Shown piece after piece: positions 8,446 to 38,720 of a stretch of 64,000 bases of DNA. The notes below the pieces were generated by a model. It searched no databases and had not been told where the DNA came from. It was given only the letters and a program-made list of their open reading frames with translations. Made by a program: the position numbers and the translations under genes. The stretch covers positions 620,001-684,000 of the forward strand of contig JASTWF010000070.1 of NCBI GenBank assembly GCA_030390025.1. The letters run 5' to 3'. Positions within the stretch are counted from its first letter, which is position 1, and each line of letters starts with the position of its first letter. Source of the stretch: Squalus acanthias (taxonomy: Eukaryota).

Positions 8446-9339
8446 AGGCCCAGGAGGAGGCCAATCAATGAGATCACGGCTGATCTGTACCTTAACTCCA
8501 TCTACCCGCCCTGGTTCCTTAACCCTTAATACCCTTACCCAACAAAAATCTATCAATCTCAGTTTTGAAATTTTCAATTCATCCCCAGCCTCAACGCTTT
8601 TTGGGAGAGAGAGTTCCAGATTTCCAATGACCATTGTGTGAAGAGCTGCTTCCTGATATCACCCCTGAACGGCCTGGCTCTAATTTTAAGGTTATGCCCC
8701 CTTTTTCTGGACTCCTCCCACCAGAGGAATGTTTTTCTCTCTATTTAAAGGAGTTGGTAGCACCTTCGCCTTTGAGTCAGAAGTTTGTGTACTCAAGTCT
8801 CATTCTGGAGACTTGAGCACAAAAATCTAGGCCGACGCTTCCAGTGCAGTATTGAGGGAGCGCTGCACTGTCAGAGCTGCCGTCTTTCAGATGAGGCATT
8901 AAACTGAGGCCCTGTCTGTCCTCTCAAGTTGACTTAAAAGATGCAATGGCAATATTTCAAGGAAACGCAGGGGAGTTCACCCTGGTGTCCTGGCCAATAG
9001 TTATCCCTCAAACAGCATCACTAGAAAACAAATGATCTGGTCATTATCACATTGGTCTTTGTGGGAGCTTGCTGTGTGCAAATTGGCCTCTGCGTTTCCT
9101 ACACTACATCAGTGACCTCACCTCAGAAAATACATCATTGGTGTAAAGCGCATTGGGAAGTCCGGTGGTGGTGAAAGGCGCTATAGAAATGCAAGTCTCT
9201 CTATTTTCTATCAACTTTAATCATCTTAAGCTCCTTAGTTTGAGATTGTTTAGGAGTTTGTTGAGAGTCTCTGTGGCTTTACATTGCAAGTTAAGTTACA
9301 GTTTCCACCTGCTGTGGATTCTTTCGTAAATCTGATAGA

Positions 9340-11350
9340 ACCCATTCGAGTTCGCGTCTCTTTCCCGCCTTCTTTTTTGATGATATTTTCAGTGCAGCAA
9401 AATCCAACGATGTGTCGAGTCTTGTCACGCGGGCCGCCCCGAGCCTGGAAAACATGTTAAAACAGGGAAATATATTGATATTTAAATCATGTTTATATCA
9501 GCTTACTCGTTCTCCATAAGACACGGGACTGGCTTCCTGTTTATAGGCAACAGTAGACGGATATTACTCATAAATAATCTCAAATTAGAAACCAACAAGA
9601 TTATTTTTTAAATCAAAGTATCCATTCAGACAACTGCACAGTTTGATTGGTTGACACGTCGAACCAATCCAATCAGCCGTTTCGTCATGCGCCATCTGCT
9701 AGGAGAAGTGTTTCCAGGGTCAAGCGGCATAGTTCCGAATAATGGCCCCAGGTCATTGTTTTAAGAGAATGGATACCGCTGCTATGGCGTCCCTACCGGC
9801 AAGCGAAGAGTCTGCCTGGGACCTCAATGAAAAAACTGTTTGCCTGTTAGGAGGGCCGAGCTCGCTGCTTAGTGGTGTAGACAGATAGCAGCAGCGTCTC
9901 GTTATAGCACACAGAAAAGTACAGATACAAAAACACATGCACACACACATACACACTTACATACACAAAAACACATGCACGCACTTACATACACACATAC
10001 TTACAAACACATACACACAAATACATACACACATAAACATACGCCTAGAAGGACAAGGGCAGCAGGCGCATGGAAACACCATCACCTCCAAGTTCCCCTC
10101 CAAGTCACGCATCATCCTGACTTGGAAATATATCGGCCGTTCCTTCATCGTCGTTGGGTAAAAATCCTGGAACTCCCTCCCTAACAGCACCGTGGGAGCA
10201 CCTTCACCACACGGGACAGCCGCGGTTCAAGAAGGCGGCTCACCACCACCTTCTCAAGGGCAACTAGGGATGGACAATAAATGCTGGCCTTGCCAGCGAT
10301 GCCCACATCCCGTGAATAAAGATAAATACATTCACACACACACACACACATATACACATCGGCACATATACACACACATATATACACACAGACAGACACA
10401 CACACACAGACACGCACAAATATAAACACAGACTCACCCACATATAAACACAGCCATACACACGCACATAAATGCATTCTTAAGCCTTGTATATCGACTT
10501 AGCATGTAAGCCATTTAGCAACATAGTTTGAGTTATCTTCACAATTATCCAGGAATGTCGTCGCATTTCTGCATCTCTATAATAATTGCTGTGGCCAAAG
10601 TATTAAAATCAGTCACCCCACCGGGGCGGGAGTGGGGGCGACCTCGACTCCCTGTAAAAATAATAAATCTGTTATCTGAAATACAAACTAAAACTGCTGG
10701 AATGACACTGCGGATGAGTATCTGTCGAGGGCATTATGCCCGAAACATTAACTGATCATTCCTGTCAGTAGATACCACTGCAGTTGATGGATTCGCTCTA
10801 TTTCCATTCTGAGCGATAATGGGGATTGGATGGAAATTAAGATGCTCTCTGTTCACGGGGCGAAACATTCCATTGAAGCTAAAACTGTACGCGAGCAAAA
10901 TATGAAACAAGCATTAATTCTGGTAAATCCTTGGTCACGTGCCATAAATAGATTTGTGGGATGGACTTTGAATCAATCTTAAAAGAACGTGGAAAATATA
11001 CCATTGAAGTCGGAGTTGGGGGTTGACTGATTTTGGCACAGTGTTAAATACTGTTACTGATGAAAAATGATTCAGTTACTTACTTTTCCTTGTGGGTCTC
11101 TTGACTCGTTCTTCTGAAACAATTAACTGTAATTCGCATTGAAAGCTGCGAGAAGGGAATCACATTAAACAAACATTTATTAAAATAGTCCCGATCAACA
11201 TCAATTCTCTTCTGATCTGCCGCTGTTATAATTCCAAAATGGAAATGAGGATCAATACTCGAACCAGGATCACCGTGACAGTTATTGCAATGGGAAGGGT
11301 CGGTATGCACCACCCTACAGAGAGAAACACTTAGAAAATGCTGCTGGGTC
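9340..11350 (-). pseudogene. Inverted decayed copy of the 3' half of receptor gene A (TM exon 11314-11212, cytoplasmic exon 11113-11084, ITIM exon ~9438-9340)
   Basis: The reverse complement aligns with 17010-17500, 18200-18510, 23570-23640 and 24880-25030. The TM exon has a +1 frameshift and donor GT->AA. The ITIM exon has acceptor AG->GG, a 2-bp deletion and Tyr TAC->GAC. Confidence 0.8.
9930..10470. repeat. CA-rich low-complexity tract interrupted by a LINE 3' fragment (~10042-10320)
   Basis: Direct inspection. The interrupting element recurs at 13160-13555. Confidence 0.75.
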
Positions 11351-11689
11351 AAGCCATTATTTTCTGGGGTTCTCTGATGAGAAACTTCACCCAGTCACAA
11401 TGGGGGAGCATCAAACCCGGGGTGTGAAAGGAGAAACCAGCCATTGCGATTAATATTGGACGAATAAAAACACATAATGGAATATATTGTGCTATGTTTG
11501 GTGTTTGGGACAAGTTGAAAGACAGGACTCAACAAATATAATTCAGCCAAGAGATGCACTTACAGCGGAGAGTTGCTATCAACAGTATATTACGCGTAAA
11601 CTGCTAGGCTCCATGTAAACACCCTGACAAAATTGTGTTTCAAAAATTAACAAATGAAGTAATTAGCATTAACATGTCAGACTTAGACG

Positions 11690-13913: not shown

Positions 13914-13968
13914 ATGTTCAAGGCAGCTTTTTCCCTGATCCTCATTGTCCACGTGTTCTGGCCTTACG
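13914..13968 (+). CDS. Gene A leader exon
   Basis: MFKAAFSLILIVHVFWPY+G, GTGAGT donor, phase 1. Confidence 0.85.
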
Positions 13969-16900
13969 GTGAGTGAGACACGGTTCCAATCTCCTAAATG
14001 GAATCAGCCAAAAACTGGAAACAATGGACTGTGTTTACTAAGTTGAAAATGTGACCGAGCTAACAACCTTTGGGCTGATATTTTCTCCCCCTCCCTATCT
14101 CTGTAACCTCCTCCTGCCCTGCAACCCTCCGAGATCTCGGCGCTCCTCCAATTCTGCCCTCTTGCGCATCCCCCGATTTCCATCGCTCCACCATTGGCGG
14201 CCGTGCCTTCAGCTGCCTGGACCCTAAGCTCTGAAATTCCCTCCTTAAAGCTCTCCGCCTCTCTCTCCTCCTTTAAGGCGATCCTTAGCACTTAGCTCTT
14301 TGACCAAGCTTTTGGTCACCTGTCCTAATATCTCTTTCTGTGGCTCGGTGTCAAATTTGTGTAAAGCGCCTGGGGTCCTTTAATTACGTTAAAGGCGCTG
14401 TATCAAAGAAAGTTGTTGTTGATAATGTTGGTTTACTTTCTGGTCCTTCTATAAGGCGAAGTAAAGGCAAACTAGAGAATGGATATAACAAGCAATAACT
14501 GAAGGCAATAATGATGCTGTTCTTAAATTACAGGCGAGGTGTTTCAACGCGGCTTCTTTCTATCGCTCAATAATCAGTTCTAATGTAACAATAATCCCTC
14601 TAGTTGCAGAATCCCAGCCCATCCTGTCTCGAAGCCCCTTCACAGTGACAGCCGGAGTCGGCCAGTCGGTCAAATTGGAATGTCACGAGATTTATGAAGT
14701 GAATGTGGTGAATAGCTATTTCTGGTACAAGCAGCGTGTGGGTGAAGCCCCGAGACTAATCGATATCCCATCCTGTAATCGGACCGATTGCAAGTTTACT
14801 TCTAGAAAAGGACACACCAAATATATACTGATCCTGGAAATCCGCAATGTGCAGGTGGCTGACACCGGCTCCTATTACTGTGCTGCTAGCGGTAGCTATG
14901 CACCGCTCGGGAATGGATCCACACTGCTGGTTGGAGGTAAGAGCAAAACCAAATGGAATTCAGATCATGCACAGCAATATCATTCGGTGTAAAGTAAGAG
15001 TTAACTGTGTCCCAATCCCTGTCCAGACAGTTCCACACCCAAGACGGCTGTGCTGGTGTTTGCTCCGCCGGGGGAGCCGCATTTAAAGGACACCGTCCCC
15101 TTGGTGTGTTTGGTCACTGGCGTCTCCTCGAACCAGACCGCTATTTACTGGAACGTTACCGGACAGTTGACCGAGGGACGGAGCGATTCCGGTACACTGG
15201 GCCCGGACGGGACCTACAGCATCAGAAGCCATGTGATGGTCTCGAGGGAAGCCTGGAGAAGCGGCGGGGTCTGCACCTGTATTATTGAGCTGGGTTCCAA
15301 GGGCAAATCTTGGGCCAAGAGCGTGTCGCGCCCCAAAACAGTGGCAGGTGAGTCGGTGATCTGTACAGCGAAGGTCAGTATTCAGCTTTAGCGTCAGTTG
15401 GAGTATTTCACTCGCTCCTAAGCGCCTGAAGTCTGTAAATAAAGCAACACCACGGGATGAACATGAATATCTATATATCAGGAGAATAGTGCTGTCAGTT
15501 TGTTATAAAACACATTGAAATAAGCTACGGTCACCCACCGTCCAAGGTCTTGTAAATACTTCCTCCGCTCTTGGCTGACTTTATATTTCTGCGGGTCATT
15601 TTAGAATCATAGAATGATGCAGCACAGAAGGAGGCCATTCGGCCCATCGTGCCTGTGCCGGCTCTTTGAAAGAGCTATCCAAATAATCCCACTCTCCCCT
15701 GCTCTTTCCCCACAGTCCTTGCAAAATTTTCGCCTTCAAGTATTTATCCGATTCCCTTTTGAAAATTATTAGTGAATCAGCTTCCACCGCCCTTTCAGGC
15801 AGCGCATCCTGGAAAGGATTGGAGTGAACGCACTTTCTGACCTGAAACTGGTCAAGAGATGCGGTGAAATAGTTGGCTGAACGCGTCCGCTGGCATCAGA
15901 CGCTCGCTCATTTCCACCCGTTTATTTTCTCGTTTCCTGTTTTAAAGACCCGAACCCCCTTTATCAATCCCCACTCTCCCCGTGAGATATAATTTAATAT
16001 ACTCGAGTTATGAAGCTTCACTGAAATTGGGTAATCGTTCCAGTTTATCACTCATAAAACATGTGGGGTGTTTGTGCACAAATCTTTGAAGGTGGCAGGA
16101 GAAGTCGAGAAGACTGCTAAAAATACATATGGGGTGCTTGGTTTATTAATAGAGGAATAGAGTACAGAAGCAAGGAAGTTATGCTAAACATTTATAAAGC
16201 AATGGTTGGGCCACAGCTGGAGTATAGTGTCTAATTCTGATCATAACACTTTAGGAAGGATGTCAATTCCTTGGAGAGGGTAGAGAGGAGATTTCCTAGA
16301 ATCGTATCAGGGATGAGGGACTTCAGTTATGTGGAGAGACTGGAGAAGCTGGGATTGATTGTTCTCCTTAGATTAGAGAAGGTTAAGAGGAGATTTCATA
16401 GAGGTGTTCAATCATGAATCATGAATGGTTCTGATAGAATAAATAAGGAGAAACTTTTCCCATTGGCAGAAGGGTCGGTAACCAGATGACATGGATTTAA
16501 GGTGATTGGCAAAAGTACCAGAGACGACATGAGGCGACATTTTTTTATGCAGCGATTTGTTGTGATCTGGAACGCGCTGCCTGAAAGGGCGGTGGAGGCA
16601 GATTCAATAGTAACCTTCAAAAGAGAATTGGATAAATACTTGAAGGGGTAACATTAACAGGGCTATGGGGAAAGAGAAGGGGGAGTGGTATTAATTGGGT
16701 AGCTCCACCAATGATCCGGCACAGCCACGATGGGTTGAATGGTCTCCTTCTGTGCTGTAATCACTCTATGATTCAATTTTCAAATAGGATGTTTTGAATG
16801 TGCGTTATTAAAATTATGGGGCAATACTGAGATTAGCGTTTGTCAATTTACCAAAACCACCAAACTAGTGCAATTTATTCCATTTTGAGCTTTCACTTGA

Positions 16901-19900
16901 CCATTATTAGTCGCATTGGCTGGTTTGTCCTTTCACACACCGGCTTTGATGCTCCTAAATTGTAACTGGTTCAGGTTTCTCATCAGAGAATCCCAGAAAG
17001 TAATGAGTTGACCCAGCAGCATTTTCTAAGTGTTTCTCTCTGTAGGGTGGTGCATTCCGACCCTTCCCGTTGCAATAACTGTCTCGTTGAGCCTGGTTCT
17101 GGTATTGATCCTCATTTTCATTTGGAATCGTAAAAGCGGCAGATCAGGTGAGAATTTACGTTTATCAGGAATATTTTAATAAATGTTTGTTTAATGTGAC
17201 TCCCTTCTCGAAGATTTCAATACTAATTACAGTTAACTGTTTCAGAAGAACGAGTCAAAAGACCCCACAAGGAAAGGTGAGTAACTGGTCCATTTACAAA
17301 CTTCCTCAGTAACAGTCTCACTCTAATTAATACTGTGTCAGAACCAGTCAACCCCAACTCCAATTTCAATATTTTCCACGTTCTTTTAAGATTGATTCAA
17401 AGTCCATTCCACAATTCTGTTCTCGATATTTATGGCACGTGACCAAGGACTTACAAGAAGTAATGCTTGTTTCATATTTTTGTTCGCATACAGTTTTAGT
17501 TTGAGAGAGAGAACGCTAAGAACAGGAATAAATGAGCGACACTCTGGTGAGTTGGACTGAAATGTTGCTGCAGATAGAACATCAATTGTGGGATATTTTA
17601 AAGATCAATCAGTGCATTTCCCGCCATGCAAAAGTCCTGCCATCGTGCTCATGTCTGCCGGACCTACAGAAATCCTAATTATTGGTTATTAATGCTGACA
17701 ATTATGTATCAGATCTACAATAGACGCCAGGCACCGGGGGTGTATCATCCATGTCCATCCATTGGCGTATTGGGATACCATTGGCATATTGGGGTATCAT
17801 TAGCATATTGCTGGACCATTGGCATATTGGTGGACCATGGGAATATTAGGGGGCCATTGGCGCATGGTGCCTCTATAATTAATTATACATTAGTCAGAAT
17901 TGATAATATTTAAATTCATATTCTTAACTGTTAATACACAGATGACACCCGTCAAATGGAGGCGAAGCGGACACATCAGGGTGCAATACATGTAAGTAAG
18001 TTCATTGAACCTGTTGCAATAATATACAGGAACTTGGTGATTTCTGGGATGGGTGCAAAATGCGGGATATTTCACGCGGTTGGCATTGAGCAGGTCATTG
18101 TGCAGATCATCTTAATTTGCAGCGAATCCCACTGGTTACTCCAACTGGAAACAGAACATATCCCGCAGCCCTCTTCCCATCTGATAATAGAAAGGATGGG
18201 TTAATGTTCCGGGTAGAATGCCTTCACCAGACTTTACTGCGGATTTTCAGCAGTTTCTGTTTCTATTTCAGATTTCCAGCTTTTTGTTATTTTCTATTAT
18301 TTTTTTTTCTACATTGAGTCCATGTCCACTCACCCCACAAACCCCAGTTCCCCCCCACCCTCGCCCCCCGCACACCCCCACCTCGCCAATCCGGTGGAGA
18401 TACTGTTTTTAATATATTAGCACAGTAATTATTATGAAGATTCAGAAATAAGACGACACTCAGGATAGTTTCACAGTTAAATCAAAATATGTTTCTATGG
18501 TAAGTCGGCAAAGAAGGAAACAGTTTGGATAGAATGTGATTGTGTGTGTGTGCGTATGAGAGTGCGTGTGACTGTGTCACTGTGAGTGGGTGTGTGTGCG
18601 TGTGACTGTGTGTGTACATGTGAGAGTGCATGAGTGTGTAAGTGTCTGTGAGTGTGAGCGTGTAAGTGAGTGTGCGTGCGTGAGATTGTCAGCCTGGCTC
18701 ATTGGGTAGCACTCTCGCCTCTGGGTCCGTAGGTCATGGGTTCAAGTCCCACTCCAAGAGACTTGCGCAAAAAAATCTAGGTTCATGCTCCCAGTGCGGT
18801 ACTGAGAGAGTGCCGCACTGTCGGAGGGGCAGTACTGAGGGAGCGCCGCACTGTCGGAGGGGCAGTACTGAGGGAGCGCCGCACTGTCGGAGGGGCAGTA
18901 CTGAGGGAGCGCCGCACTGTCGGAGGGGCAGTACTGAGGGAGCGCTGCACTGTCGCAGGTGCCGTCTTTCAGATGAGATGTTCAATTGAGGCCGGAATGT
19001 GGGCGGAAAAGAACTCACGCCACTATCTCGAAGAAGAGCAGAGAGTTCTCCCTGGTGTCCTGGGCCTATATTTATCCCTCAACCAACATCACTAAAAAAC
19101 AGATGATCTGGTCATTATCCCATGGCTGTTTGAGCGAGCTTGCTGTGCGCAGATTGGCTGCCACGTGTCCTACAGTGACTACACTTCAAAAGTATTTATT
19201 TGGCTGTAAAGCGCTTTGGGCGGTGCTAAGGTCATGAAAGGTGCTGTAGAAATGAAAGTATTTCTTTCTTTATGATGTGTGATGGCGTGTGTGTGTGCTA
19301 CTGTATGGGTATGATTGATTGTGTGTGTGTCATTGAGTGTGAGTGTATTTGAGTGTGTGTAATTAAGTGTGTGTGTGTGATTCTGTGTGGGTATGATTGA
19401 TTGTGCGTGTGTCTATGAGTGTGAGTGTGAGTGTATTTGAGTGTGTGTATCTGTATGTAATTGAGTGTGTGTGTGTGATTCTGCCTGGGCATGATTGATT
19501 TTGTGTGTGTGTGAATTTGTCTGGGTGTGATTGATTGTGTATGTGTGTGTGTGTGTGATTGAGTGTCTGTGTGTATGTGATTATGTCTGGGTATGAATGA
19601 TTGTGTGTGCGTATGTGTGTGTGAGTGATTGAGTGTCTGTGTGTGTGTTATTAAGAACATAAGAACATAGGAAATAGAAGCAGGAGTAGGCCAATTGGCC
19701 TCTCGAGCCTGCTCCGCCATTCAATAAGATCATGGCTGATCTGATCCCAACCGCCAATCTACTATCACAGAACCATCTCCTGAACCCAACAGAATTGGAC
19801 ACACGAAATAGGAGCAGGATCAGGCTACACGGCCCCTGGGCCCGCCACGCCACCCACAGGGCCATGACCGATCCGAACCCAGACTCATGTCCAAATTCCT

Positions 19901-22900
19901 ACCCGCTCCCCGTAAACCTTAATTCCCTTTACTTCTAGGAAACTGTCTATTTCTGTTTTAAATGTATGTAATGATGTAGCTTCTTCAGATTTTTGGGGCA
20001 GCATATTCCATGGACCTACCACCCTCTGAGTGAAGTAGTTCCTTCTCATCTCAGTTTTGAAAGAGCAGCCCCTTATTCTAAGACTATGCCCCCTAGTTCT
20101 AGTTTCACCCATCATCGGGAACAAACTCCCCGCATCCACCCGATCCAACCCCTTCACAATCTTATATGTTTCAATAAGATCGCCTCTCATTCTTCTGAAC
20201 TCCAATGAGTAGAGTCCCAATCTACCGAAACTCTCCTCATATGTCCATCCCCTCATCCCCGGGATTAACCGAGTGAACCATCTTTGTACTGATTCGAGAG
20301 CAAGTATGTCTTTTCTTAAGTATGGACACCAAAACTGTATGCAGTATTCCAGGTGCGGTCTAACCAATACCCTGTACAACTGAAGCAATACCTCCCTATT
20401 TTTATATTCTATCCCCCTAGCAATGAAAGCCAACATTCCATTGGCCTTCTTAATCACTTGCTGCACCTGCATACTAACCTTTTGAGTTTCGTGCACCAGG
20501 ACCCCCAGATCCCTTTGTCCAAAAATGTGCGGGTTAGGTGATTTGGCTATGATAAATTGACCCTTAGTGTTAGGGGGGGATTAAATATGTGGGGTTACAG
20601 GGATAGGATGGGATATGTTAGGGGGAATTAAATACGTGGGGTTACGGGGATAGGGTGGGATATGTGTCGGTGCAGGCTCGATGGGGATTCTGTGTGAGAG
20701 GGCAGGGACAGGGTACTGGATTTGGATGATCAACCATGATCGTATTGAATGGTGGAGCAGGCTCGACGGGCCGAATGGCCTACTCCTGCTCCTAGTTTCT
20801 ATGTTTCTACTTCAGTACTTTCCAGTTTCTTGCCATTAAGATAATAACTTGCTCTACTATTTTTCCTACCAAAGTGCATAACCTCACACTTTCCAGTATT
20901 GTATTCCATCTGCCAAATCGCTGCCCACTTACTTAGCCTGTCTATGTCCCCTTGCAGATTTTTTATGGCCTCCTCACTCACTACTTTCCCTCCCATCTTA
21001 GTATCATCTGCAAACTTTGATATGTTACACTCGGTCCCCTCCTCCAAATCGTTAATATAGATTGTAAAGAGTTGGGGACCCAGCACTGACCCCTGCAGAA
21101 CACCACTAGTTACTGATTGCCAGTCTGAGAATGAACCATTTATCCCAACTCTCTGCCTTCTGTTAGATAGCCAATCCTCTATCCATGCCAGAATATTACC
21201 CCCAATCCTGTGATTTTTTATCTTAAGCAATAATCTTTTGTGTGGCACCTTGTCAAATGCCTTTTGGAAGTCTAAATACGCCACATCCACTGGTTCCCCT
21301 TTATCCACCCTGTATGTTACTTCCTCAAAGAACTCCAGCAAATTTGTCAAACATGACTTCCCCTTCATAAAACCATGCTGACTTTGTCCTATTAAATTAT
21401 GATTATCCAAATGTCCCGTTACTGTCTCCTTAATAATGGACTCCAAAATTTTACCTACCACAGATGTTAGGCTAACCGGTCTATAGTTTCCAGCCTTCTG
21501 TCTACTGCCTTTTTTAAATAAGGGTGTTACATTAGCAGTTTTCCAGTCTGCCGGGATCTTTGCTGAGTCCAGGGAGTTTTGGAAAATTTTTACCAATGCA
21601 TCCACAATCCCTACCGCCACTTCCCTCAAGACCCTAGGATGTAAGCCATCAGGTCCAGGTGATTTATCCGCCTTGAGTCCCATTATTTTACCGAATACCA
21701 CTTCCTTAGTGACTTTGATCGTGTTTAGCTCCTCCCCCCCCCCTATAGCCCCCTGTTTGTCCAGTGTTGGGATATTCTTAGTGTCCTCTACTGTAAAGAC
21801 TGATACAAAATATCCATTCAGTGTATTCGCCATCTCCATATTTCCCACCATTAATTTCCCGGTCTCATCCTCTAAGGGACCAACATTTACTTTGGACACC
21901 CTTTTTCTTTTTAAATAACTATAAAAACTCTTACTATCTGTTTTTATATTTTTTGCTAATTTACTTTCATAATCTATCTTCCCTTTCTTAATCAATCTTT
22001 CTGTTATTTTTTGCTGTCTTTTAAAGTTTTCCCAATCCTCCAACCTCCCACTAGATTTGGCTACTTTATAGACCCTTGTTTTTAGTCGAATACTATCCTT
22101 AATTTCTTTACTTAGCCACGGATGACTGTCATTTCTTTTACACCCTTTTCTTCTCAGTGGAATATATATTTTTTGGAAGTTGTAAAACAACTCCTTAAAT
22201 GTACACCACTGATCATGTATCGTCTTACCCTTTAATCTATTTTCCCAATCCACTCTGCTCAATACCACTCGCATACCTTCTTAGTCTCCTTTATTCAAGC
22301 TTAGCACGCTTGTTTGAGATCCAACCTTCTCACCCTCTAATTGAATAAGGAATTCAACCATGTTATGGTCACTCATTCCAAGGGGATCCTTTACTAGGAC
22401 ATTTTTTCTTAATCCTGTCTCGTTACCTAGGACCAGATCTAAGGTTGCTTGCCCCCTGGTCGGTTCAGTTACATACTGCTCAAGAAACCCATCCCTAATA
22501 CACTCAATGAACTCATCCTCAATGCAGCCCTGCCCAATTTGATTTGTCCAATTAATATGATAGTTAAAATCCCCCATAATTAAAGATGTTCCCTTATTAC
22601 AAGCCTCAACTATTTCCTGATTGATACTCCATCCAACAGAGTTGCAACTGTTCGGAGGCCTATAGACTACGCCCACTAGTGTTTTTTCCCCTTATTATTC
22701 CTTATCTCCAACCAAACTGTTTCATTATCCTGATCTTTTCACCCAATATCATTGCTCTGTTTTACAATTATTGCTTCCTTTATTAACATAGCCACCCCAC
22801 CTCCCCTTCCTTCCTGCCTGTCCTTCCTGATCGCTAAATAACCTGGTATGTTTAATTCCCAGGCATTGTCACCCTGCAGCCATGTTTCCGTAATGGCCCA

Positions 22901-23368
22901 CAAGATCATACCCATATGTAATCATTTGTGCCATTAACTCGTCTATTTTGTTACGAATGCTACGTGCATTCAGACAGAGAACTTTCAAATATGTTTTGTG
23001 ACACTTAGTTCCTGCTTTTGCCCTTTTTATTACTTTACCTTTTACTCCATATCTTCTGCCCCTTCCTGACAGACTCTGGTTTTAATTTCCCCACTGCTAC
23101 CTAAGTCTATGACCTTCTCTGTTGTCATTTTTATTATTTGCTCTCTAGGAACCTCTCCCCCACTAGTTAGTTTAAAGCCATCTCTACAGCCTTAGTTATA
23201 TGATCCGCCAGGACTCTAGTCCCAGCACTGGGCAAGTGAAGCCCGTCCCAACGGAACAGCTCCCTCCTGCCCCAGTACTGGTGCCAGTGTCCCAGGAAGC
23301 AAAACCCGTTTCTCCCACACCAGTCTTTGAGCCACTCATTTAACTCTCTATTCTGTCTGGGTGTGATT

Positions 23369-23451
<83 letters not shown>

Positions 23452-24987
23452 TGTTATTCTGTCTGGGTATTATTGATTGTGTGTGTGTGAGTGATTGAGT
23501 GTCTGTGTGTGTGTGATTCTGTCTGGGTATGATTGATTGTGTGTGAGTGATTGTGATTTATGTAACCCTGTAGATGGCGCATGGCAAAACATGACCGTCT
23601 GATTGGATTGTTTTTGATGTGTCTATCCTATCAAACAGATAGACTCATCATCCCAGTTTCCTGATTAAATGTGGTGATTTCTGGGTTCACTGCTTTAAGA
23701 GTTGTGCTCCTCTGTGTGTTAAAACATTAATTCAGACAGTTCTTGTGTGGACATATTAAGCAAATTCTCAAATTTAGAAAGCGGGTGATGGAAGTAGATT
23801 CAATGCTTAATTTCAAAAGCGAATTGGAAAAATACTCGAAGGATAAAAATGTGCAAGTCTGTGGGGAAAAGCAGGGAGAGTGGGACTAATTGGATAGAGT
23901 GGGCAGTAAGGTGGCAGATGAAGTATAATGTAGGGAAATGTGAGGTTATTCACTTTGGTAGGAAGAATCGAAAAACAGTATATTTTTTAAATGGTGAGAA
24001 ACTTTTAAATGTTTGTGTTGAGAGAGAATTGGATGTCCTCGTGCAAGAAACACAGAAAGCTAGCATGCAGGTATAGCATGTAATAAGAAAGGCAAATGGC
24101 ATATTGACCTTTACTGCAAGGGAGTAGGAGTATAAGAGTAAGGAGGTCTTGCTACAATAATACAGGGCCTTCGTAAGACAACACCTGGAGTACTGTGCAC
24201 AGTTTTGGTCTCCTTACCTTAGGAAAGATGTACTTGCCTTGGAGGCGGTGCAACAAAGGTTCACTAGATTGATTCCTGGGATGAGAGGGCTGTATTATGA
24301 TGAGAGATTGTGTAGATTGGGCCTATTCTCTCTGGAGTTTAGAAGAATGAGAGGTGATCTCATCGAAACATACAAGATACTGGAGGGGGTTGAAAGGGTA
24401 GATGCTGAGAAGCTGTTTTCCCTGGCTGGCATGTCTGGAACTAGGGGACATAATCTCAGGATAAGGGGTAGGCCATTTAAGACGAAGATTAGGAGGAATT
24501 TCTTCACTCAGAGGGTTGAGAATCTTTGGAATTTTCTGGCCCAGAGGCCTGTGGATGCTCAGTCTTTGAGTATATTCAAGACTGAGATAGATAGATTTTT
24601 GGACTCTAGGGGAATCAAGGAATATGGAGATCGAGTAGGAAAGAGGAGTTGAAGTCGATGATCAGCCATGATCTTATTGAATGGCGGAGCAGGCTCGAGG
24701 GGCCGGATGGCCTACTCCTGCTCCTAATTCCTATGTTCTTATGATCTTTCAAAGAGCCAGCACAGGCACGATGGACCGAACAGCCTGCTTCTGTGCTGCA
24801 TCGTTCTCTGATTCCATGAAACGCGACTGCAGGACGAGATAGTTTGAACTACCTTTAAATATCTAGAAATGTCAATGTTTAATATATTTTCCTGTCTCAG
24901 GGCGGCCCTCGAGACCAGATACTTTACGCCTCTCTGCAATTTGCTGCCTCGGAAAAGTCATCAAAAAAGAAGGCGGGTCGCGGATGA
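13914..24987 (+). CDS. Gene A: non-rearranging VJ-C1-TM inhibitory (ITIM) Ig-superfamily receptor, whole gene, ~343 aa. Exons 13914-13968, 14604-14936, 15027-15347, 17046-17147, 17246-17276, 17494-17546, 17942-17991, 24901-24987
   Basis: All junctions are GT-AG and phases chain to 1032 bp with no stop. Signal peptide, V-set and C1-set domains, hydrophobic TM, ILYASL ITIM. The small cytoplasmic exons are the least certain part. Confidence 0.8.
14085..14422 (+). mobile_element. L2-like LINE/SINE 3' tail in gene A intron 1
   Basis: ccattggcggccgtgccttcagctgcc..tttgaccaagcttttggtcacctgtcc..(ttg)n, the same family as 4400-4787. Confidence 0.7.
14604..14936 (+). CDS. Gene A V exon with built-in J-like strand
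   Basis: AESQPILSRSPFTVTAGVGQSVKLEC..YFWYKQRVGEAPRLI..LEIRNVQVADTGSYYCAASGSYAPLGNGSTLLVG. AG acceptor at 14602-3, GTAAGA donor, no RSS. Confidence 0.92.
15027..15347 (+). CDS. Gene A C1-set exon
   Basis: SSTPKTAVLVFAPP..VPLVCLVTGV..IYWNVTG..DGTYSIRSHVMVSREAWRSGGVCTCII..KTVA. Phase 1-1, GTGAGT donor, 90-bp intron from V. Confidence 0.92.
16050..16775 (+). mobile_element. Degenerate CR1-type LINE 3' fragment
   Basis: Similar to the other CR1 3' ends (ctggagaagctgggattg..ctccttag; ctggaacgcgctgcctgaaaggg). Confidence 0.75.
17046..17147 (+). CDS. Gene A transmembrane exon
   Basis: GWCIPTLPVAITVSLSLVLVLILIFIWNRKSGRS. Strong acceptor tttctctctgtag, GTGAGA donor, no charged TM residue. Confidence 0.88.
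17246..17991 (+). CDS. Gene A short cytoplasmic exons 17246-17276, 17494-17546, 17942-17991
   Basis: Donors GTGAGT, GTGAGT, GTAAGT. Phases 1>2>1>0 give EERVKRPHKES-FSLRERTLRTGINERHSD-DTRQMEAKRTHQGAIH. An alternative single exon 17233-17276 (phase 1>0) is also in frame. Confidence 0.6.
18690..19270 (+). mobile_element. tRNA-derived SINE with ~5 tandem copies of a 33-bp internal unit (18792-18960)
   Basis: Unit cagtactgagggagcgccgcactgtcggagggg. Confidence 0.8.
19280..19652. repeat. GT-rich minisatellite; continues at 23349-23560, including a pure (GT)n run at ~23374-23448
   Basis: Recurrent ctgtctgggtatgattgattgtgtgtg units on both sides of the LINE. Confidence 0.8.
19653..23348 (-). mobile_element. 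Near-full ORF2 CR1-clade LINE (end of ORF1 esterase, APE endonuclease, RT) in the last intron of gene A
   Basis: ORF1 C-terminus ..FRWDGLHLPSAGTRVLA..ALN* (23165-23348). EN motifs GVVYRPP, MGDFN, SDHNMV. RT ORF of 491 aa with SKFADDTK, C-terminal ORF of 203 aa. TATT at both junctions. Confidence 0.95.
20519..20808 (+). mobile_element. 5'-truncated HE1-type SINE inserted antisense into the LINE RT ORF
   Basis: tccaaaaatgtgcgggttaggtgatttggctatgataaattgacccttagtg body with a CR1-type tail (tctatgtt). Removing it rejoins the LINE frame ESTEV|QRDLGVLVHETQK. Confidence 0.75.
23770..24740 (+). mobile_element. CR1-type LINE 3' fragment
   Basis: WQMKYNVGKCEVIHFG..RRMRGDLIETYKIL..FFTQRV. Confidence 0.88.
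24901..24987 (+). CDS. Gene A terminal exon with ITIM
   Basis: ttttcctgtctcag|GGPRDQILYASLQFAASEKSSKKKAGRG*. ILYASL fits (I/V/L/S)xYxx(L/V). AATAAA at 25321. Confidence 0.82.
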   Translation, partial: GGPRDQILYASLQFAASEKSSKKKAGRG

Positions 24988-26219
24988 GAACCCGGAGGGT
25001 TTCTATCGGATGGATGCGGGAGGAGACAGGACTTCCAAAAGAACCCACAGCCGGCGGGAAAAAGAATGGAGCCACGGAGACTCCCGTCAAACATCCAAAC
25101 TATCTCCCTGCATTCGCCAGAGTTTGCAAAGACTCTTTCTATTCAATGTAAACGAACGTGCTTTGAGTATTGTAAAGATATTCCACTGCATTAGTGTAAT
25201 TCAAGTGTGAGACCAACATTAAGAGCAGGGACTTCTCGGTTTGGTCTTTCTCTGAACCTTTCCTGCTCATCCTGCAGCTCCAGTTAGTAACAACATTTTT
25301 TTTCCAAATGCTTGTGTATAAATAAAATAAATTATTCTTCGAATGTAACGATGCACGAGAGGTTCCTATCGATCAATACTTCACTTATAATTAAATGTGA
25401 TCAGGATAAAACTTCAATGACTATTGAGCTGACAATATCGGTCCTGAATTGAGATACTGTTAGTGGCGATATCCTCTGTCTGAGAAGCCAGAGGCTTAAT
25501 CATTTACAGACTAAGATCACAACAGGAGAGAATCGCGGGCAGAATGCGGGGAATTGTGTCTGGTTCCATTTTACCTTTGGGGTCGTGTGTTTTGCTGTGT
25601 GTAGTAATGTCAAAACTACATGTCAGAGATAGATGGTGAGTGCAGCGTGGCTTGGGAGGAATGGGTGACTTTGGACCTGTGGTTTCCTAAAGCTCTCCAC
25701 CACTGGAGGTTTGCTCACGTCAGATCTGGGTCTCTTGTGGACTCGTGGATAGGGATGGATTGCCATGACAACCGCATTATCATTGCATCATGCGATTACC
25801 AGGATGGTAGAAGTTATGGCAACTGGCATGTTGGCCTTTATTGCACGGGGGTTGGAGTATAAGAGTAAGGAAGGACCTTGGCCCCTTCTCGTCTAGCAAT
25901 TCCTATGTTCAAGATCCCAGGTTTGCACAATTTTGGGAGAAGATATTCAACCAGAGACAGGATTGCATCATAGGTGGTTATTTTGCTTTATCCATCAGAG
26001 TCAGATCAGTCTAAGTATTCCCCTTCTGATTAGTTTGGAATCAGCATGTACAACCGAATGAGATTCAGGAGCAACAAAAACAGTTCCTGACAAAGACCCT
26101 TTCAAATCCATCTCTCAGAAACTGTCCAATAAATTACCTGAGGATTTGAATAAATTCCTAACAACCGTGTTCTCATTAATGTTAATATATATTGTAGGGC
26201 TCTATAAAGCTGATCTAAG

Positions 26220-29193: not shown

Positions 29194-29238
29194 TCAGAGG
29201 GTCGGAACCGCATTAAACGCCAGGTGGGCGTAAAGAGT
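29194..29238 (-). CDS. Gene B terminal exon
   Basis: tgttttctctcatag|TLYAHLAFNAVPTL*, homologous to gene A ILYASLQF. Confidence 0.78.
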   Translation of the reverse strand, partial: TLYAHLAFNAVPTL

Positions 29239-32200
29239 CTATGAGAGAAAACAGAAACATTATCATGGCCCACATCATCATCATAGGAACAGAGGGACAG
29301 GAGGAGGCTGTTCAGCCCCTCGAGACTGTTCCGACATTCAATCAGATCATGGCAGATCTGTATCTTAACTGCATCTACCCGCCTTGGTTGCCTAACCCTT
29401 AATACCCTTACCCAGCAGGAACATATCAAAAAATCTCTCAGTTTTGCAATTTCCAATTGACCCCCAGCCTCAGCAGCTTTTTGGGAGAGAGAGTTCCAGA
29501 TTTCCACCACCCTTTGTGTGAAGAAGTGCTTCCTGACATCACCCCTGAACGGCCTGGCTCTAATTTTAAGGTGATGCCCCCTTGTTCTGGACTCCCCCCA
29601 CCAGAGGAAATAGTTTCTCTCTATCTACCCCATCGAATCTTCAATCAGCTTAAACACCACAATTAAATCACCCCTTAATATTCTATATTTGAGGGAATAT
29701 AAGCCTAGTCTGTGCAACCTGTCCTCATAATTTAACCCATTTAGTCCCGGGTATCACTCTGGTGAATCATCATTCTGCAATTTCAAATATCCAGATCTAT
29801 ATTTTTTTAATCTACGTTCGCAGTTTTACATAAAAGGAAAACAGTGCTAGCCTGTAGTGCTCACTATGCAATGTTTTATAGACTCGTTGACTATGAATCT
29901 TAAACATTGGGTTAAAATAAGTGCAAGGTATCAAAATTTAAAGATCGCATGGATGAACTACAGAATTTGTTCATCCCTGTCTGGCATAAAAATAAAACAA
30001 AAAAGGTGGCACAACCGTGGCTACCAAGGAAAATTAGGGATAGCATAAGATCCAAGGAGAGGACATATAAATTGGCCAGAAAAAGCAGCAAACCTGAGGA
30101 TTGGGAGCAGTTTAGGATTCAGCAAAGGAGGACAAAAGGATTAATAAAGGGGGGGAAATAAAGTATGAGAGTAAGATTTCAGGGAACATAAACACTGACT
30201 GTAAAAGCTTCTATAGATATGTGAAGAGAAAAAGATTGGTGAAGTTAAGCGTAGGTCCCTTGCAGTCAGAATCAGGGGAATTTATAATGGGGAACAAGGA
30301 AATGGCTGATCAATTAAATACATACTTTGGTTCTGTCTTCACAAAGAAGGACACAAATAACCTCCCAGAGATGACGGGGGACATAGGATCTAATGAGAGC
30401 GAGGAACTGAATGAAATCAGTATTTGTAGGGAAATGGTGTTAGGGAAATTGACGGGATTAAAGGCCGATAAATCCCCAGGGTCTGATAATCTACATCCTA
30501 GGGTACTTAAGGAAGTGCCCCAAGAAATAGTAGATGCATTGCTAGTCATCTTCCAAAATTCTATAGACTCTGCCACAGTTCCCATGGATTCGAGGGTAGC
30601 AAATGTAACCCCACTATTTAAAAAAGGTGGCAGAGAGAAAACGTGGAATGGTAAGCCTGACATCAGTCGTGGGGAAAATGCTAGAGTCCATTATACAAGA
30701 TGTAATAGCAGAGCTTTAGAAAACAGTGACAGGATCGGACAAAGTCAACATGGATTTACAAGCGGTAAATCGTGCTTGACTAATCTACTGGAATTTTTTG
30801 AGGATGTAACTGGTAGAATAGATAAGGGAGAACCAGTGGATGTGGTGTATTTGGACTTTCAGAAGGCTTTCGATAAGGTCCCGCATAAGAGATTAGCGTG
30901 TAAAGGTAAAGCACATGGGATTGAGGGTAAGGTACTGACTTGGATAGAGAATTGGTTGGCAGACAGGAAGCAAAGAGTTGGAATAAACGGGTCTTTTTCC
31001 GAGTGGCAGGCAGTGACTAGTGGGGTACCGCAGGGATCGGTGCTGGGACCCCAGCTATTCACAATATCTATTAATGATCTAGACGAGGGAACTAGATGCA
31101 ATATCTCCAAGTTTGCAGACGACACAAAGCTGGGTGGGCGTGTGTGCTGTGAGGAGGATGCCGAGAAACTCCAGTATAATTTGGACAGGTTGGGTGATTG
31201 GGCAGATGCATGGCAGATGCAGTATAATGTGGATAAATGCGAGGTTATCAACTTTGGTGGCAAAAACAAGAAGGCAGATTAGTATCTGAACGGCAATAGA
31301 TTGGGAGAAGGGGAAGTGCAACGAGACCTGGGTGTCCTTGTGCACCAGTCGCTGAAGGTAAGCATGAATGTGCAGCAAGCAGTTAAGAAGGCAAATGGAA
31401 TGTTGGCCTTCATCGCGAGAGGATTCGAGTACAGGAGCAAGGATGTCTTGCTGCAGTTGTACAGGGCCTTGGTGAGACCACATCTTGAGTATTGTGTGCA
31501 GTTTTGGTCACCTTATCTGAGGAAGGATGTTCTTGCCATGGAGGGAGTGCAGCGACGATTCACCAGACTGATACCTGGGCTGGCAGGAATGACGTATGAA
31601 GAGAGATTGGGTCGATTGGGCTTATATTCGCTGGAGTTCAGAAGAATGAGAGGGGATCTCATTGAAACTTATAAAATTCTAACAGGACTAGACAGATTAG
31701 ATGCAGCAAGGATGTTCCCGGTGGCGTGGGAGTCCAGAACCAGGGGTCACAGCCTAAAGATAAGGGGTAAGCCTTTTAGGACAGAGATGAGGAGGAATTT
31801 CTTCAGCCAGAGAGTGGTGAACCTGTGGAATTCTCTACCACAAAAGGCAGTTGAGGCCAATTCATTAAATATATTCAAGAAGGAGTTAGATATATTTCTT
31901 AAGGCTAAAGGGATCGAGGGATATGGGGAGAAAGCAGGGACAGGGTACTGAATTTGGATGATCAGCGATGATCTCATTGAATGGTGGAGCAGGCTCGAGG
32001 GGCCGGTGGCCTACTCCTGCTATCTTCTATGTTTCTATGTTTCTATGTTGAGCAAAAACAATTCTTTTCATATCTACCTCCTTCTCTTGTGCACGTGGTC
32101 TCGAATCGGTCAATTTCTGATCGCTCTTCGTGTTGCCTGATATAAAGAGAAACTTAATCTAAGTCTAAATGCACACATTTCACACTGAACCGACCCACTA

Positions 32201-35200
32201 ACATGTAATGAGTCAATGACACAATAAATGGATTGATTGGGAGCGCCGTGGAGTTGGAGCGCCTCCCGACAACCGCTACCTGACCGCCGGTTCCTGCAGC
32301 TCCTTCCCGCGGCGACAATAACCATCAGCAGAAGCAGAAGCGCCGCCGCCGAACTCCCGTAAAGCAGTAATCTGCAGTTGGTTTGTTGCGGGGGCCCTGA
32401 AGAAAGAAAAAAAACAACCTTTTATTTTTTTTAAATCCCGTAACCCGAGCTTTCTGGTTCTCGCATAAGGTTCAAGTAGGCCCACCACCAACTTCTCAAC
32501 CGCTAGGGATGGACAATTAATGCCAGACTTACCAGCGTCACCCACATCACGAGAACAAATTAAAAATGTTGCTGAAAATCATTNNNNNNNNNNNNNNNNN
32601 NNNNNNNNNNNNNNNNNNNNNNNNNNNNNNNNNNNNNNNNNNNNNNNNNNNNNNNNNNNNNNNNNNNNNNNNNNNNNNNNNNNNNNNNNNNNNNNNNNNN
32701 NNNNNNNNNNNNNNNNNNNNNNNNNNNNNNNNNNNNNNNNNNNNNNNNNNNNNNNNNNNACAGGCAGACAAATAGACAGACAGAACTATATAACCATGAA
32801 TCTATCGAAGGGTGGGACAAAGAAGGAGACTGAAAGGCCCTCCATGTTTGTGCCGGCTCTTTGCTAGATGGATCCAAAACTAATCCCATTATCCGGCTCT
32901 CTCTCCATATTCCTGTATCAATCCAAAACGAATCCCAAAGCCCACTCTGTCCCCTGGGATGCACCACTTCCAATCCTTCGCCAATCCGAGGAATACCCAT
33001 TTACCCTATCTCCTTATGTTTTGAATGTCATCTAACTTTCCATCCATGCTGCCACATCTCCTTCACACCAAACCCCTAAATTGTTTCCTAACAGCCTTCT
33101 TGTGCGACACTTTATCAAACGCCTTCTGGAATTCCATACACGTTACATCTACTGCAATCCCTTTAACTATCCAATCGGTCCGTTCCACAAAAGCTCTTTT
33201 AAATTTGTTAAACACGACTCCACTTTCACAAATCGCTGCTGGTTGTCCTTAACTAGCCCAGCCATTTTTAAATGCTCACCACAGTCAGTTCAAATTACGG
33301 ATTCTAAGTGTTTGTCCGCAACTCATCTGATATATGGTAGCCCAAGTGACACCTTTCTCCTCTCTTAGATGAAACGTTAGACAGAAACCGTTTGGGTCGG
33401 AAGAATAAGGAGGTCACATACTCCTTGGAAAATAAGTGTCTAAATGGAGCAGAGGAGCAGTGGGATCTGGAGGTACAGATACACAAATCACTAAAAGTAG
33501 CGACGCAGGTTAATAAGGCCATAAAAGCAAACCAAGAACTGGGGTTCATTTCTAGAGGGATAGAATTGAAAAGCAGAGAAGTTATGTTAGATTTCTGTAG
33601 AACCTTGGTTGGACCACACTTGGAATACTGAGAACATTTCTGGGTTCCATATTATAAAAAGGATATAGAGACACTGGAGAAGATACAAAAAGATTTACTA
33701 GGATGATACCAGAATTGAGACGTTATGCCTATCAGGAAAGATTGAACAGGCTGGGCTCCTTTCTCGACAAAAGTGAAGACTGAGAGGTGACCTGATAGAG
33801 GACTTTAGATTATGAAAGGGTTTACATAGGATTACATAGGATATACGGCACAGAAACAGGCCATTCGGCCCAACCAATCCATTCCAGCGTTTATGCTCCA
33901 CTCGAGCCTCCTCCCGTCTTTCCTCATCTAAATCAATCAGCTTATCCCTCTATTCCCGACTCCCTCACATGCTTGTCCAGCCTCCCCCTTCAAATGCATC
34001 TATACTATTCGCTTCAACCACTCCCTGTGGTAGCGAGTTCCACATTCTCACCACTCTCCGGGTAAAAAGTTTTGTCCTGAATTCCCTAATGAATTTCTTG
34101 GTGACTATCTTATATTGATGGCCTCTAGTTATGCTCTACCCCACAAGTGGAAACATTCTCTCGCTATCTACTCTGTCAAAACCTTTGATAGGGTCGACGT
34201 AGAGAAGATCGTTCCATTTGTGGTGGGGGGTGGGGGCGCTTGGGATCAGAACTCGGCGCCACAAATAAAAGATAGTTACTATTAAAACCAATTGGGAATT
34301 CAGGAGAAACTTCTTTACCCAGAGAGCGGTGAGAATGTGGAACTCGCTACCACAGACAGTGGTTGAGACGAATAGCACAGATGCATTTAAGGGGAAGCTG
34401 GATAAATACATGAGGGAGAAATGAATAGATGGATATTGATGGGTTTATAATGAAGTGGGATGGGAGGGCACTCGTGTGGAGCATAAACACCGGCACGGAC
34501 CTGTTGGGCCGAATGGCCTGTCGCTGTGCTGTACATACTGTGTAATACAGATACCTACATACAGGCATCGAGAGAGAAAGTGATAAACTGGAAATGGCAA
34601 TTATATTTTCCAATTTTACGCATGGACAGCTCAGACAGATTCCTTCTCTCCCACCATATACGTATGGCCTAGCTAGACAGATGGACTTTATAATTCAGAA
34701 AGCTCAACACTGCAACATTGAGAGATGTAAATGATTGGGTAATTCTACATGGACACGCAGAAAGGGAGAGACTTTGAATGTATAAAGTGATATTGCGAAC
34801 AATTAACTCTTACATCAGCACGGAAGATATTAGTAAAGTGTCACTGCCAATAGTTACCTCTCTGAGATGAGACACTTTCACTGATCAGATCCCCAGTGGA
34901 GTTGATTGGAACGGCGCAAGTACAGACAGCGCCGCTGCTCCAAGTTTCCGCCGAGACGCTGATGTGACTCCTTACAGTGTAGGTCCCGTCCGGGTCTATT
35001 GTCCCAGAATCGCTCGGTTCCTCGGTAACCTGTCCGGAAACATTCCAGCGAACGGGAAGGGAACCGGGAGACATGCTTTTCACCAAACACATCAATGGGA
35101 CCCTTTCCAGCGAGGGAATTTCATCCGGCGGCGGAGCTAAGAGAAAGATTTCCGGAGACCCTGGCGAGTTTGGGGGGTTAAGGTACCATTAATATTCGAC

Positions 35201-38419: not shown

Positions 38420-38720
38420 ACCATTCCTGCAAATTCAAAGTTTATTAGAAGGACAGTCTCCTTACCGTGTAGGGTCAGTGGTGCTTCCTCGAACCGGAAT
38501 GCTATTTTCTGGGATGTTTCCAGACGGGGTAACAGAGCGACGCACCGATTCCCGGTACAATAGACCCGGACGGGACCTACAGCAACAGAAGTCACATCAG
38601 TGTCTCGGTGCAAACTTGGAGCAGCGGCGCTCTCTGTACTTAGTGCTGTTCCACTAGACTTCTCCAGCTAAAATATGGAGAAGAGCGTGTCGGGGAAAAC
38701 TGTAGAGAAAGCCAGGAAAG
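38420..38720 (+). pseudogene. Frameshifted C1 exon relic of the A/B receptor family
   Basis: RTVSLPCRVSGASSNRNAIFWDVS / GTIDPDGTYSNRSHISVSVQTWSSGALCT / aagagcgtgtcg, in shifting frames. Confidence 0.8.

What the first reader, a model, noticed from the sequence alone, without database searches (positions are those of the whole stretch)
17046..24987. Hidden cytoplasmic tail of gene A: three micro-exons and a distant ITIM exon
None of these exons appears in frame in the ORF track. Exons of 31, 53 and 50 bp have consensus donors and chain in phase 1>2>1>0. Across a 6.9-kb repeat-filled intron they join GGPRDQILYASLQF.., a canonical ITIM, and ITIMs are known to recruit SHP-1/2. An upstream acceptor (17233) would allow a shorter in-frame isoform. 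A further possible 36-bp phase-0 exon (18464-18499, DSFTVKSKYVSM, GTAAGT donor) would add a second Tyr, but its acceptor is weak.
Basis: partly seen in the sequence, partly recalled or inferred. Interest (0 to 1): 0.72.

Follow-up and report, generated by a model that had tools for sequence, protein, structure and literature searches.

The report
Shark receptor's split ITIM tail
This shark-type gene for an antibody-shaped, non-shuffling cell-surface receptor has its inner tail split over three tiny exons and a last exon carrying a brake-type (ITIM) motif, a layout that other sharks' genes share, so it likely works as an ordinary immune brake, and the two extra splice forms that were proposed are probably not made.

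Summary
Confirmed in the main. Exons 17246-17276, 17494-17546, 17942-17991 and 24901-24987 chain after the TM exon into an open 341-aa V-C1-TM receptor with one tail tyrosine, in ILYASL. Phase-chaining alone is chance-level (114 open chains, shuffled median 148), but homology to other sharks picks exactly this chain (score 94.8; shuffles at most 0.6). Spliced contigs from sister copies join C1>TM>E1>E2>E3 (2 of 3 runs, one study). The E3>24901 join was not seen in RNA; it rests on 12 of 19 homologous protein models. The 17233 acceptor and the 36-bp exon are unsupported: in 0 of 19 homologs, bypassed in 2 of 2 contigs (17233), donor lost in 7 of 21 copies (36-bp). The exon is 'distant' mainly because a 3.7-kb LINE entered one five-copy clade; other copies have 1.9-3.6-kb introns. 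YASL is conserved, but the canonical Y-2 residue is Pro in 11 of 12 homologs. Gene A is one of at least 23 copies and is paired with an intact convergent gene B (TLYAHL). Likely PRARP/VJC1-like; orthology unproven. The scan noted this family before, elsewhere in this genome. Ordinary; modest interest.

The parts
13914..13968 (+). Gene A leader exon (55 nt, phase 1)
   Evidence: ATG, GTGAGT donor; aligns with the leaders of shark homologs; found in 23 of 23 copies
14610..14936 (+). V-set exon that includes the J-like G strand (LGNG variant); non-rearranging
   Evidence: Pfam V-set E 1.3e-11; G strand inside the same exon
15027..15347 (+). C1-set exon
   Evidence: Pfam C1-set E 6.4e-09; 59-77% identity to 19 shark proteins
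17046..17147 (+). TM exon: juxtamembrane Cys237, uncharged TM helix
   Evidence: C1>TM join in contig X1
17221..17227 (+). Branch-point-like TACTAAT (putative branch A at 17226): 6 nt before the 17233 AG, 19 nt before the used AG
   Evidence: same heptamer in 18 of 21 copies; branch use inferred
17246..17276 (+). Tail micro-exon E1, 31 nt, phase 1>2 (NAGNAG, second AG gives a start at 17249)
   Evidence: joint skipping 98 nt GT..AG in X1 and X3; homology
17494..17546 (+). Tail micro-exon E2, 53 nt, phase 2>1 (in-frame second acceptor at 17500)
   Evidence: joint skipping 217 nt GT..AG in X3 and loose end in X1; homology
17942..17991 (+). Tail micro-exon E3, 50 nt, phase 1>0
   Evidence: X3 loose end after E2 reads the start of E3; homology
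18464..18499 (+). Proposed 36-bp exon; probably a pseudo-exon
   Evidence: 0 of 19 homologs; donor in 14 of 21 copies, acceptor 5/17 pyrimidines, one of 4 open symmetric candidates in this intron
19654..23349 (-). Antisense LINE (endonuclease + RT) in the last intron, limited to a five-copy clade
   Evidence: Pfam RVT_1 E 1.5e-29, Exo_endo_phos_2 E 1.3e-10; 3490-3696 nt covered in 5 of 21 copies, at most 169 in the other 16; clade support 100/99; ends approximate
24901..24987 (+). Terminal coding exon with ILYASL (Tyr322, the only tail tyrosine) and the stop
   Evidence: same acceptor in 22 of 22 copies that keep the exon; YASL in 12 of 19 homologs
25321..25326 (+). AATAAA, likely polyadenylation signal
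   Evidence: 322-335 nt after the stop in 18 of 22 copies
29194..36257 (-). Convergent partner gene B: six exons, open 301-aa VJ-C1-TM protein with TLYAHL in its last exon (29194-29238)
   Evidence: V-set and C1-set; homologs in 9 shark and ray proteins, several ending in TLYAHL/TLYARL
9330..11506 (-). Inverted decayed copy of the TM-to-terminal-exon module; keeps an AG two codons upstream of the position matching 24901
   Evidence: broken TM donor and frame

Best explanation
Gene A is an open eight-exon shark-type gene (leader, V with J-like strand, C1, TM, three micro-exons, terminal exon) whose tail likely splices TM>31>53>50>24901 and ends in a single ITIM, so the protein is predicted to be a germline-fixed inhibitory receptor that would recruit an SHP-type phosphatase once Tyr322 is phosphorylated. 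Shown: the exon chain is open; the first four joins occur in transcripts of sister copies; other sharks have the same tail. Inferred: the last join (from homologous models and the conserved acceptor), expression of this very copy, phosphorylation and SHP binding. Because the tail has only one tyrosine and SHP-1/2 carry two SH2 domains, the second phospho-motif would most likely come from a dimer partner (a second A chain, or the neighbouring gene B product with TLYAHL; both carry a juxtamembrane Cys), not from the 36-bp pseudo-exon. The 6.9-kb intron is a by-product of a recent LINE insertion and needs no functional explanation.
For: Open 341-aa frame. Tail matches 14 of the 19 gene-A homologs by BLASTP, 8 of them at 55-68% identity over its whole length, E 1e-19 to 1e-26. 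Top chain of 114 by homology. GT..AG joints TM>E1 (2 contigs) and E1>E2 (1 contig), plus loose ends for C1>TM, E1>E2 and E2>E3. 12 of 19 homologous models run from the E3 equivalent straight into the YASL exon. Terminal acceptor kept in 22 of 22 copies, AATAAA at the same distance in 18 of 22. No charged TM residue. [quoted passage not shown] A ray homolog has ILYASL exactly (Mobula P0034), and related V-C1-TM proteins of paddlefish, sturgeon, gar, lungfish, caecilian, frog, turtle and lizards end in ITIM-type motifs.
Against: The E3>24901 join was not seen in any contig. The contigs differ from gene A at about 9% of letters, so they come from sister copies; the runs are only guessed to be RNA and are one study. 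Homologs are database gene models, 7 of the 12 from one species. Pro stands at Y-2 in 11 of 12 (non-canonical ITIM). Among this genome's copies, variants in the tail are about as often non-synonymous as neutral expectation (18 synonymous, 58 non-synonymous; expected synonymous share 0.27) and introns are as conserved as exons, so the paralogs give no sign of purifying selection. 11 of 23 copies are broken and one of the 12 open ones lacks the tyrosine. No binding or signalling data.
Confidence: 0.75

Rival explanations
1. The tail is regulated by alternative splicing: the 17233 acceptor gives a short isoform and the 36-bp exon adds a second tyrosine.
For: Both are formally open. The AG before 17233 and the AG before 18464 are each kept in 21 of 21 copies, and the 36-bp frame has no stop in the copies read.
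Against: 22 of 46 intronic AGs are also kept in 21 of 21, so that is background. 0 of 19 homologs show either form; 2 of 2 contigs use 17246. 17233 needs two further skips or it stops early. AGs closer than 12-15 nt to the branch point can be bypassed (PMC1431707, passages). The 36-bp donor is lost in 7 of 21 copies; adding the exon lowers the homology score from 94.8 to 73.8.
Confidence: 0.08
2. Gene A is a correctly built but functionally relaxed or silent copy in a recently expanded, decaying array; the LINE in its last intron may weaken the last splice or cause early termination.
For: 11 of 23 copies broken, neutral-looking variation; a 3.7-kb LINE specific to this clade; no contig matches gene A's tail at near 100%.
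Against: All eight exons are open with GT/AG sites; 4 of the 5 LINE-carrying copies keep an open frame; the LINE is antisense; a contig with 7 differences in 267 letters covers the V exon, so close copies are present in those runs.
Confidence: 0.12
3. The tyrosine motif is mainly a sorting or non-SHP docking signal (YxxL endocytosis motif, or SHIP/other SH2 site) rather than an SHP-recruiting ITIM.
For: Most shark homologs have Pro at Y-2 yet keep YASL, as do 2 of 12 open copies here; single tyrosine. That YxxL also serves endocytosis is recalled knowledge.
Against: Gene A, Heptranchias (V), Mobula (I), Narcine (S) and the bony-vertebrate relatives have a canonical Y-2 residue; aromatic +5 is conserved.
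Confidence: 0.15

Closest known systems
Shark database models named 'immunoglobulin kappa light chain-like' (Heterodontus P0002/P0003, Heptranchias P0017, Scyliorhinus P0018/P0019, Mustelus P0015, Stegostoma XP_048381739.1, Mobula XP_072139900.1)
   Same: One clade with gene A (99/98); V-C1-TM, same tail segments, terminal YASL.
   Different: Gene A's terminal exon starts two codons later and, like Heptranchias, has four more residues before the tyrosine, giving Ile at Y-2 where most sharks have Pro; rays have a shorter tail. The automatic names are wrong: these have a TM and tail.
PRARP1/PRARP2 (Fu et al. 2019) and Xenopus VJC1 genes (Ohta et al. 2019); texts not held, content recalled; PRARP named as a non-rearranging VJ gene in PMC10751288 (passage)
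   Same: Recalled features: a pair of non-rearranging VJ-C1 membrane genes with one ITIM or ITSM each, in fish, amphibians and reptiles. The A/B pair has that build, and its next relatives span that range.
   Different: No labelled PRARP sequence was available; the branch joining the A clade to bony-vertebrate relatives is weak (79/88). Gene A's J motif is LGNG, not FGxG. Here the pair is amplified to 20 or more units interleaved with Ig light-chain genes.
UrIg / UrIg2 (PMC12227049; abstract, introduction and results read)
   Same: Elasmobranch non-rearranging VJ exon, split leader, C1 domains, auto-annotated as IgL; UrIg2 is linked to Ig genes and has a TM.
   Different: UrIg has three C1 domains and is secreted; UrIg2 has nine or more. 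Gene A has one C1 and an ITIM tail.
SIRP-alpha and NITR inhibitory receptors (recalled)
   Same: V-type IgSF receptor with a multi-exon tail ending in an ITIM exon.
   Different: SIRP-alpha has V-C1-C1 and several tail tyrosines; NITRs have V plus an I-type domain. Gene A has V-C1 and one tyrosine.

Membership tests
ITIM-bearing inhibitory receptor | (S/I/V/L)xYxx(I/V/L) in the cytoplasmic tail | tested here: met
   ILYASL at Tyr322 after the TM; definition in PMC12151841
ITIM-bearing inhibitory receptor | Motif exon is spliced in frame to the TM exon in transcripts | tested here: inconclusive
   TM>E1>E2>E3 seen in sister-copy contigs; E3>24901 not seen; supported by 12 of 19 protein models
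ITIM-bearing inhibitory receptor | Canonical motif conserved in orthologs | tested here: inconclusive
   YASL in 12 of 12 full tails; canonical Y-2 in 1 of 12, plus Mobula and Narcine but not Stegostoma or Cetorhinus among four further hits
ITIM-bearing inhibitory receptor | No charged TM residue for an activating adaptor | tested here: met
ITIM-bearing inhibitory receptor | Phosphorylated motif recruits SHP-1/2 or SHIP and damps activation | not testable with these tools
   needs pull-down and cell assay
PRARP / VJC1 (features recalled) | Single unsplit exon for V with J-like strand | tested here: met
   G strand lies in exon 14610-14936; LGNG in 12, LRNG in 9 of 23 copies; gene B has FGNG
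PRARP / VJC1 (features recalled) | V-C1-TM with one ITIM/ITSM | tested here: met
PRARP / VJC1 (features recalled) | Occurs as a linked gene pair | tested here: met
   A and B convergent in the window; A- and B-type proteins share the longest-contig length in Scyliorhinus, Cetorhinus and Stegostoma, which suggests linkage
PRARP / VJC1 (features recalled) | Orthology to named chicken/turtle/Xenopus PRARP by tree or synteny | tested here: inconclusive
   no labelled sequence; A clade joins bony-vertebrate V-C1-ITIM proteins at 79/88 only
PRARP / VJC1 (features recalled) | Disulfide-linked homo- or heterodimer; B/T-cell expression | not testable with these tools
   juxtamembrane Cys present in A and B; nothing more
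Ig light chain (database name) | V-C without TM or tail; groups with IgL | tested here: not met
   TM and tail present; IgL rows form a separate branch, 99/97
UrIg / UrIg2 | Three or more C1 domains | tested here: not met
   one C1 exon between V and TM (C1>TM join); UrIg build from PMC12227049
SIRP-alpha / NITR (features recalled) | V-C1-C1 with several tail tyrosines (SIRP) or V plus I domain (NITR) | tested here: not met
   V-C1, one tail tyrosine

The most novel reading that the evidence does not exclude
Genes A and B encode the two chains of a germline-fixed, TCR/Fab-shaped inhibitory heterodimer in which chain A brings one ITIM (ILYASL) and chain B one switch-like motif (TLYAHL), together engaging both SH2 domains of an SHP phosphatase. 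The pair is amplified to 20 or more units beside Ig light-chain clusters, with the CDR3-like loop shuffled between copies and the ITIM kept, weakened or lost from copy to copy, as a tunable innate repertoire descended from the pre-RAG antigen-receptor precursor.
Probability: 0.3. Interest if true: 0.65.

Novelty: new member of a known kind. Interest (0 to 1): 0.3.

Why it matters
The finding itself is a correct gene annotation: multi-exon tails ending in an ITIM exon are usual for inhibitory Ig-family receptors (recalled), and other sharks' models already hold this tail. Its value is indirect. It fixes the signalling end of a non-rearranging V-C1 family that databases mislabel as light chains, shows that each chain has a single tyrosine (so a dimer is likely needed), and gives a natural series of ITIM variants (Ile, Pro, His at Y-2, tyrosine lost) to test SH2 selectivity in the oldest living lineage with Ig/TCR immunity. 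It bears on what non-rearranging relatives of antigen receptors do.

Tried and rejected
Phase-chaining as evidence: chance-level. Paralog conservation and synonymous/non-synonymous counts as evidence of selection: uninformative, introns as conserved as exons. My first idea that gene A alone had lost the ancestral terminal acceptor: rejected, none of the 22 copies has AG two codons upstream; only homologous proteins and the inverted decayed copy point to the older site. RNA: no run on record as RNA was listed; three runs guessed to be RNA, one study. Laying them on 13500-25600 was swamped by repeats and hid the low-depth joints; a trace of cover lies over 24812-25215 in X3 but no joint was listed. 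The narrow lay (16800-18180) could not reach the last intron, and X2 gave nothing. A structure prediction of the A-B ectodomain pair was not available, so dimer formation is untested. PDB sequence search gave only generic antibody chains among the 60 shown of 5917. Papers: Fu 2019 and Ohta 2019 not held; searches found no paper describing this shark family, but the library lacks most subscription journals, so this is no proof that it is unpublished; no supplements were read. Rows dropped: two copies without a full tail (p462k, p868k) from the 21-copy counts, C185 also from the codon counts; the C3349 fragment was not fetched; the family tree used 33 hand-picked proteins of those found.
Full report
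1. Observation. TM exon 17046-17147 is followed by E1 17246-17276 (31 nt), E2 17494-17546 (53 nt), E3 17942-17991 (50 nt) and a terminal exon from 24901 with a stop ending at 24987. With leader 13914-13968, V 14610-14936 and C1 15027-15347 they give an open 341-aa protein. The domains are V-set and C1-set. The TM has no charged residue, there is a juxtamembrane Cys237, and Tyr322 is the only tail tyrosine. The last intron is 6909 nt.

2. Is it more than chance? The phase argument is not. The region between the TM donor and 24901 holds 75 candidate YAG..GTRAG exons and 114 open chains of one to three of them that would reach the ITIM in frame; 40 of 40 block shuffles also give chains (median 148).

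3. Transcript evidence. Three runs, guessed to be RNA and from one study, were offered. On 16800-18180 two contigs were laid. X1 reads the end of C1, the TM exon, E1 and then the start of an E2 like that of the sister copy at 972 kb (compare). X3 reads TM, E1, E2 and the start of E3. Both skip 98 nt (GT..AG), so they use 17246 and not 17233; X3 skips 217 nt to 17494. They differ from gene A at 12 of about 134 letters, so they are sister-copy transcripts. The join E3>24901 was not seen.

4. Homologs. All 19 hits of the C1 search are shark proteins, 59-77% identical. 12 of 19 end in a YASL motif, and in all 12 the E3 equivalent runs straight into it; a thirteenth reads the same junction in a shifted frame; six end otherwise. 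None shows the 36-bp exon or the 17233 frame. These are database models, 7 of the 12 from Heterodontus. The residue at Y-2 is Pro in 11 of 12 and Val in Heptranchias. A wider search added Mobula with ILYASL, Narcine with SIYTSL, Stegostoma and Cetorhinus with Pro, and V-C1-TM proteins with ITIM-type ends in paddlefish, sturgeon, gar, lungfish, coelacanth, caecilian, frog, turtle and lizards. Homologs have two more residues at the start of the terminal exon; the six bases before 24901 encode them, and the inverted decayed copy at 9330-11506 keeps an AG there. So the array's acceptor likely moved 6 nt downstream before the expansion (0 of 22 copies have the upstream AG).

5. The two extra isoforms. 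17233: in frame only if E2 and E3 are skipped as well; otherwise it stops 97 nt before the last junction. Its AG is 6 nt behind a branch-like TACTAAT, against 19 nt for 17246 (heptamer in 18 of 21 copies), and AGs within 12-15 nt of the branch point can be bypassed (PMC1431707, passages). Its conservation in 21 of 21 copies is background, as 22 of 46 intronic AGs are equally kept. The 36-bp exon: acceptor with 5 of 17 pyrimidines, donor kept in 14 of 21 copies (real donors 21 of 21; intronic GT median 19), one of four such open candidates in this intron. More plausible variants are the 17249 and 17500 acceptors and TM skipping, all in frame in gene A and all mirrored in homologous models.

6. 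Why the exon is far away. The window lies in a tandem array on contig C3553. I fetched 22 further copies; 21 of 23 have a full tail, 12 of 23 are open with GT/AG sites. The last intron is 1.9-3.6 kb in 16 copies and 6.5-10.2 kb in five, which form one clade (100/99) and share a 3.7-kb antisense LINE at about 19654-23349. Among the 12 open copies the motif is ILYASL in 9, PLYASL in 2 and lacks the tyrosine in 1. Against my reading: variation among copies looks neutral in the tail, TM, V and C alike, and introns are as conserved as exons. Some copies are near-identical pairs (1174 of 1174, 1171 of 1175 letters) and may be assembly duplicates.

7. How it likely works. Shown: build, frame, four of five tail-side joins in sister copies, conserved YASL. 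Inferred: ligand binding by V, phosphorylation of Tyr322, docking of an SH2 phosphatase. [quoted passage not shown] With one tyrosine per chain, a dimer is the simplest source of the second motif. The convergent gene B (36257-29194) is open, 301 aa, VJ-C1-TM, with a juxtamembrane Cys and TLYAHL in its last exon, a motif its shark homologs share. Binding of A to B is untested.

8. Comparison. It works like an ITIM receptor. It belongs to a shark-and-ray clade (99/98) distinct from the B clade and from IgL. It resembles the PRARP/VJC1 pair (recalled; texts not held; named in PMC10751288), but orthology is unproven. It is not UrIg/UrIg2 (PMC12227049), IgL, SIRP-alpha or NITR by domain build. Earlier notes of this scan on other windows of the same genome reached the same family label; they are not independent evidence. 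I had written PRARP as my reading before seeing them.

9. Verdict. Observation confirmed; main interpretation supported; both extra isoforms unlikely. New member of a known kind; interest 0.3.

Noticed in passing
window 29194-36257 (-): Gene B: open six-exon VJ-C1-TM gene, tail to tail with gene A, ending in TLYAHL (switch-motif-like); homologs in sharks and rays.
   Followed up: partly
window 9330-11506 (-): Inverted decayed copy of the TM-to-terminal-exon module with no V or C beside it; like copies recur at 16 listed places of the array and keep the older terminal acceptor.
   Followed up: partly
window 46640-46981, 43070-43357, 59262-59603, 56130-56417 (-): Two Ig light-chain-like sets with V and J already joined and a separate C exon; the second V has a stop. 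The first groups with IgL in the tree; isotype not tested.
   Followed up: partly
G000:C3553, copies at 10 kb to 1316 kb: The CDR3-like loop comes in a few types; gene A's type recurs in copies of other clades (1316 kb, 10/233 kb), which suggests gene conversion or shuffling.
   Followed up: no
L010 (462 kb copy) and L018 (868 kb copy): One copy lost E1-E3 so that TM meets the terminal exon out of frame; the other lost the terminal exon.
   Followed up: partly
L024 (1316 kb copy), L026, L033: Open copies with the tyrosine lost (1316 kb) or Pro at Y-2 (148 kb, C24): natural signalling variants.
   Followed up: no
window 15027-15347 to 17246: Skipping the TM exon keeps the frame; two Heterodontus models (P0001, P0007) have that TM-less form, so a soluble isoform is possible.
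   Followed up: partly
window 38426-38640 (+): Orphan, frame-broken C1 fragment related to genes A and B.
   Followed up: no
G000:C3553 10 kb/233 kb, 291 kb/window, 148 kb/C24: Near-identical copy pairs (0, 4 and 8 mismatches in about 1175 letters): very recent duplication or assembly redundancy.
   Followed up: no
window 20518-20804: About 286 nt inside the LINE are present only in gene A and the 291-kb copy, not in the other three LINE-bearing copies.
   Followed up: no
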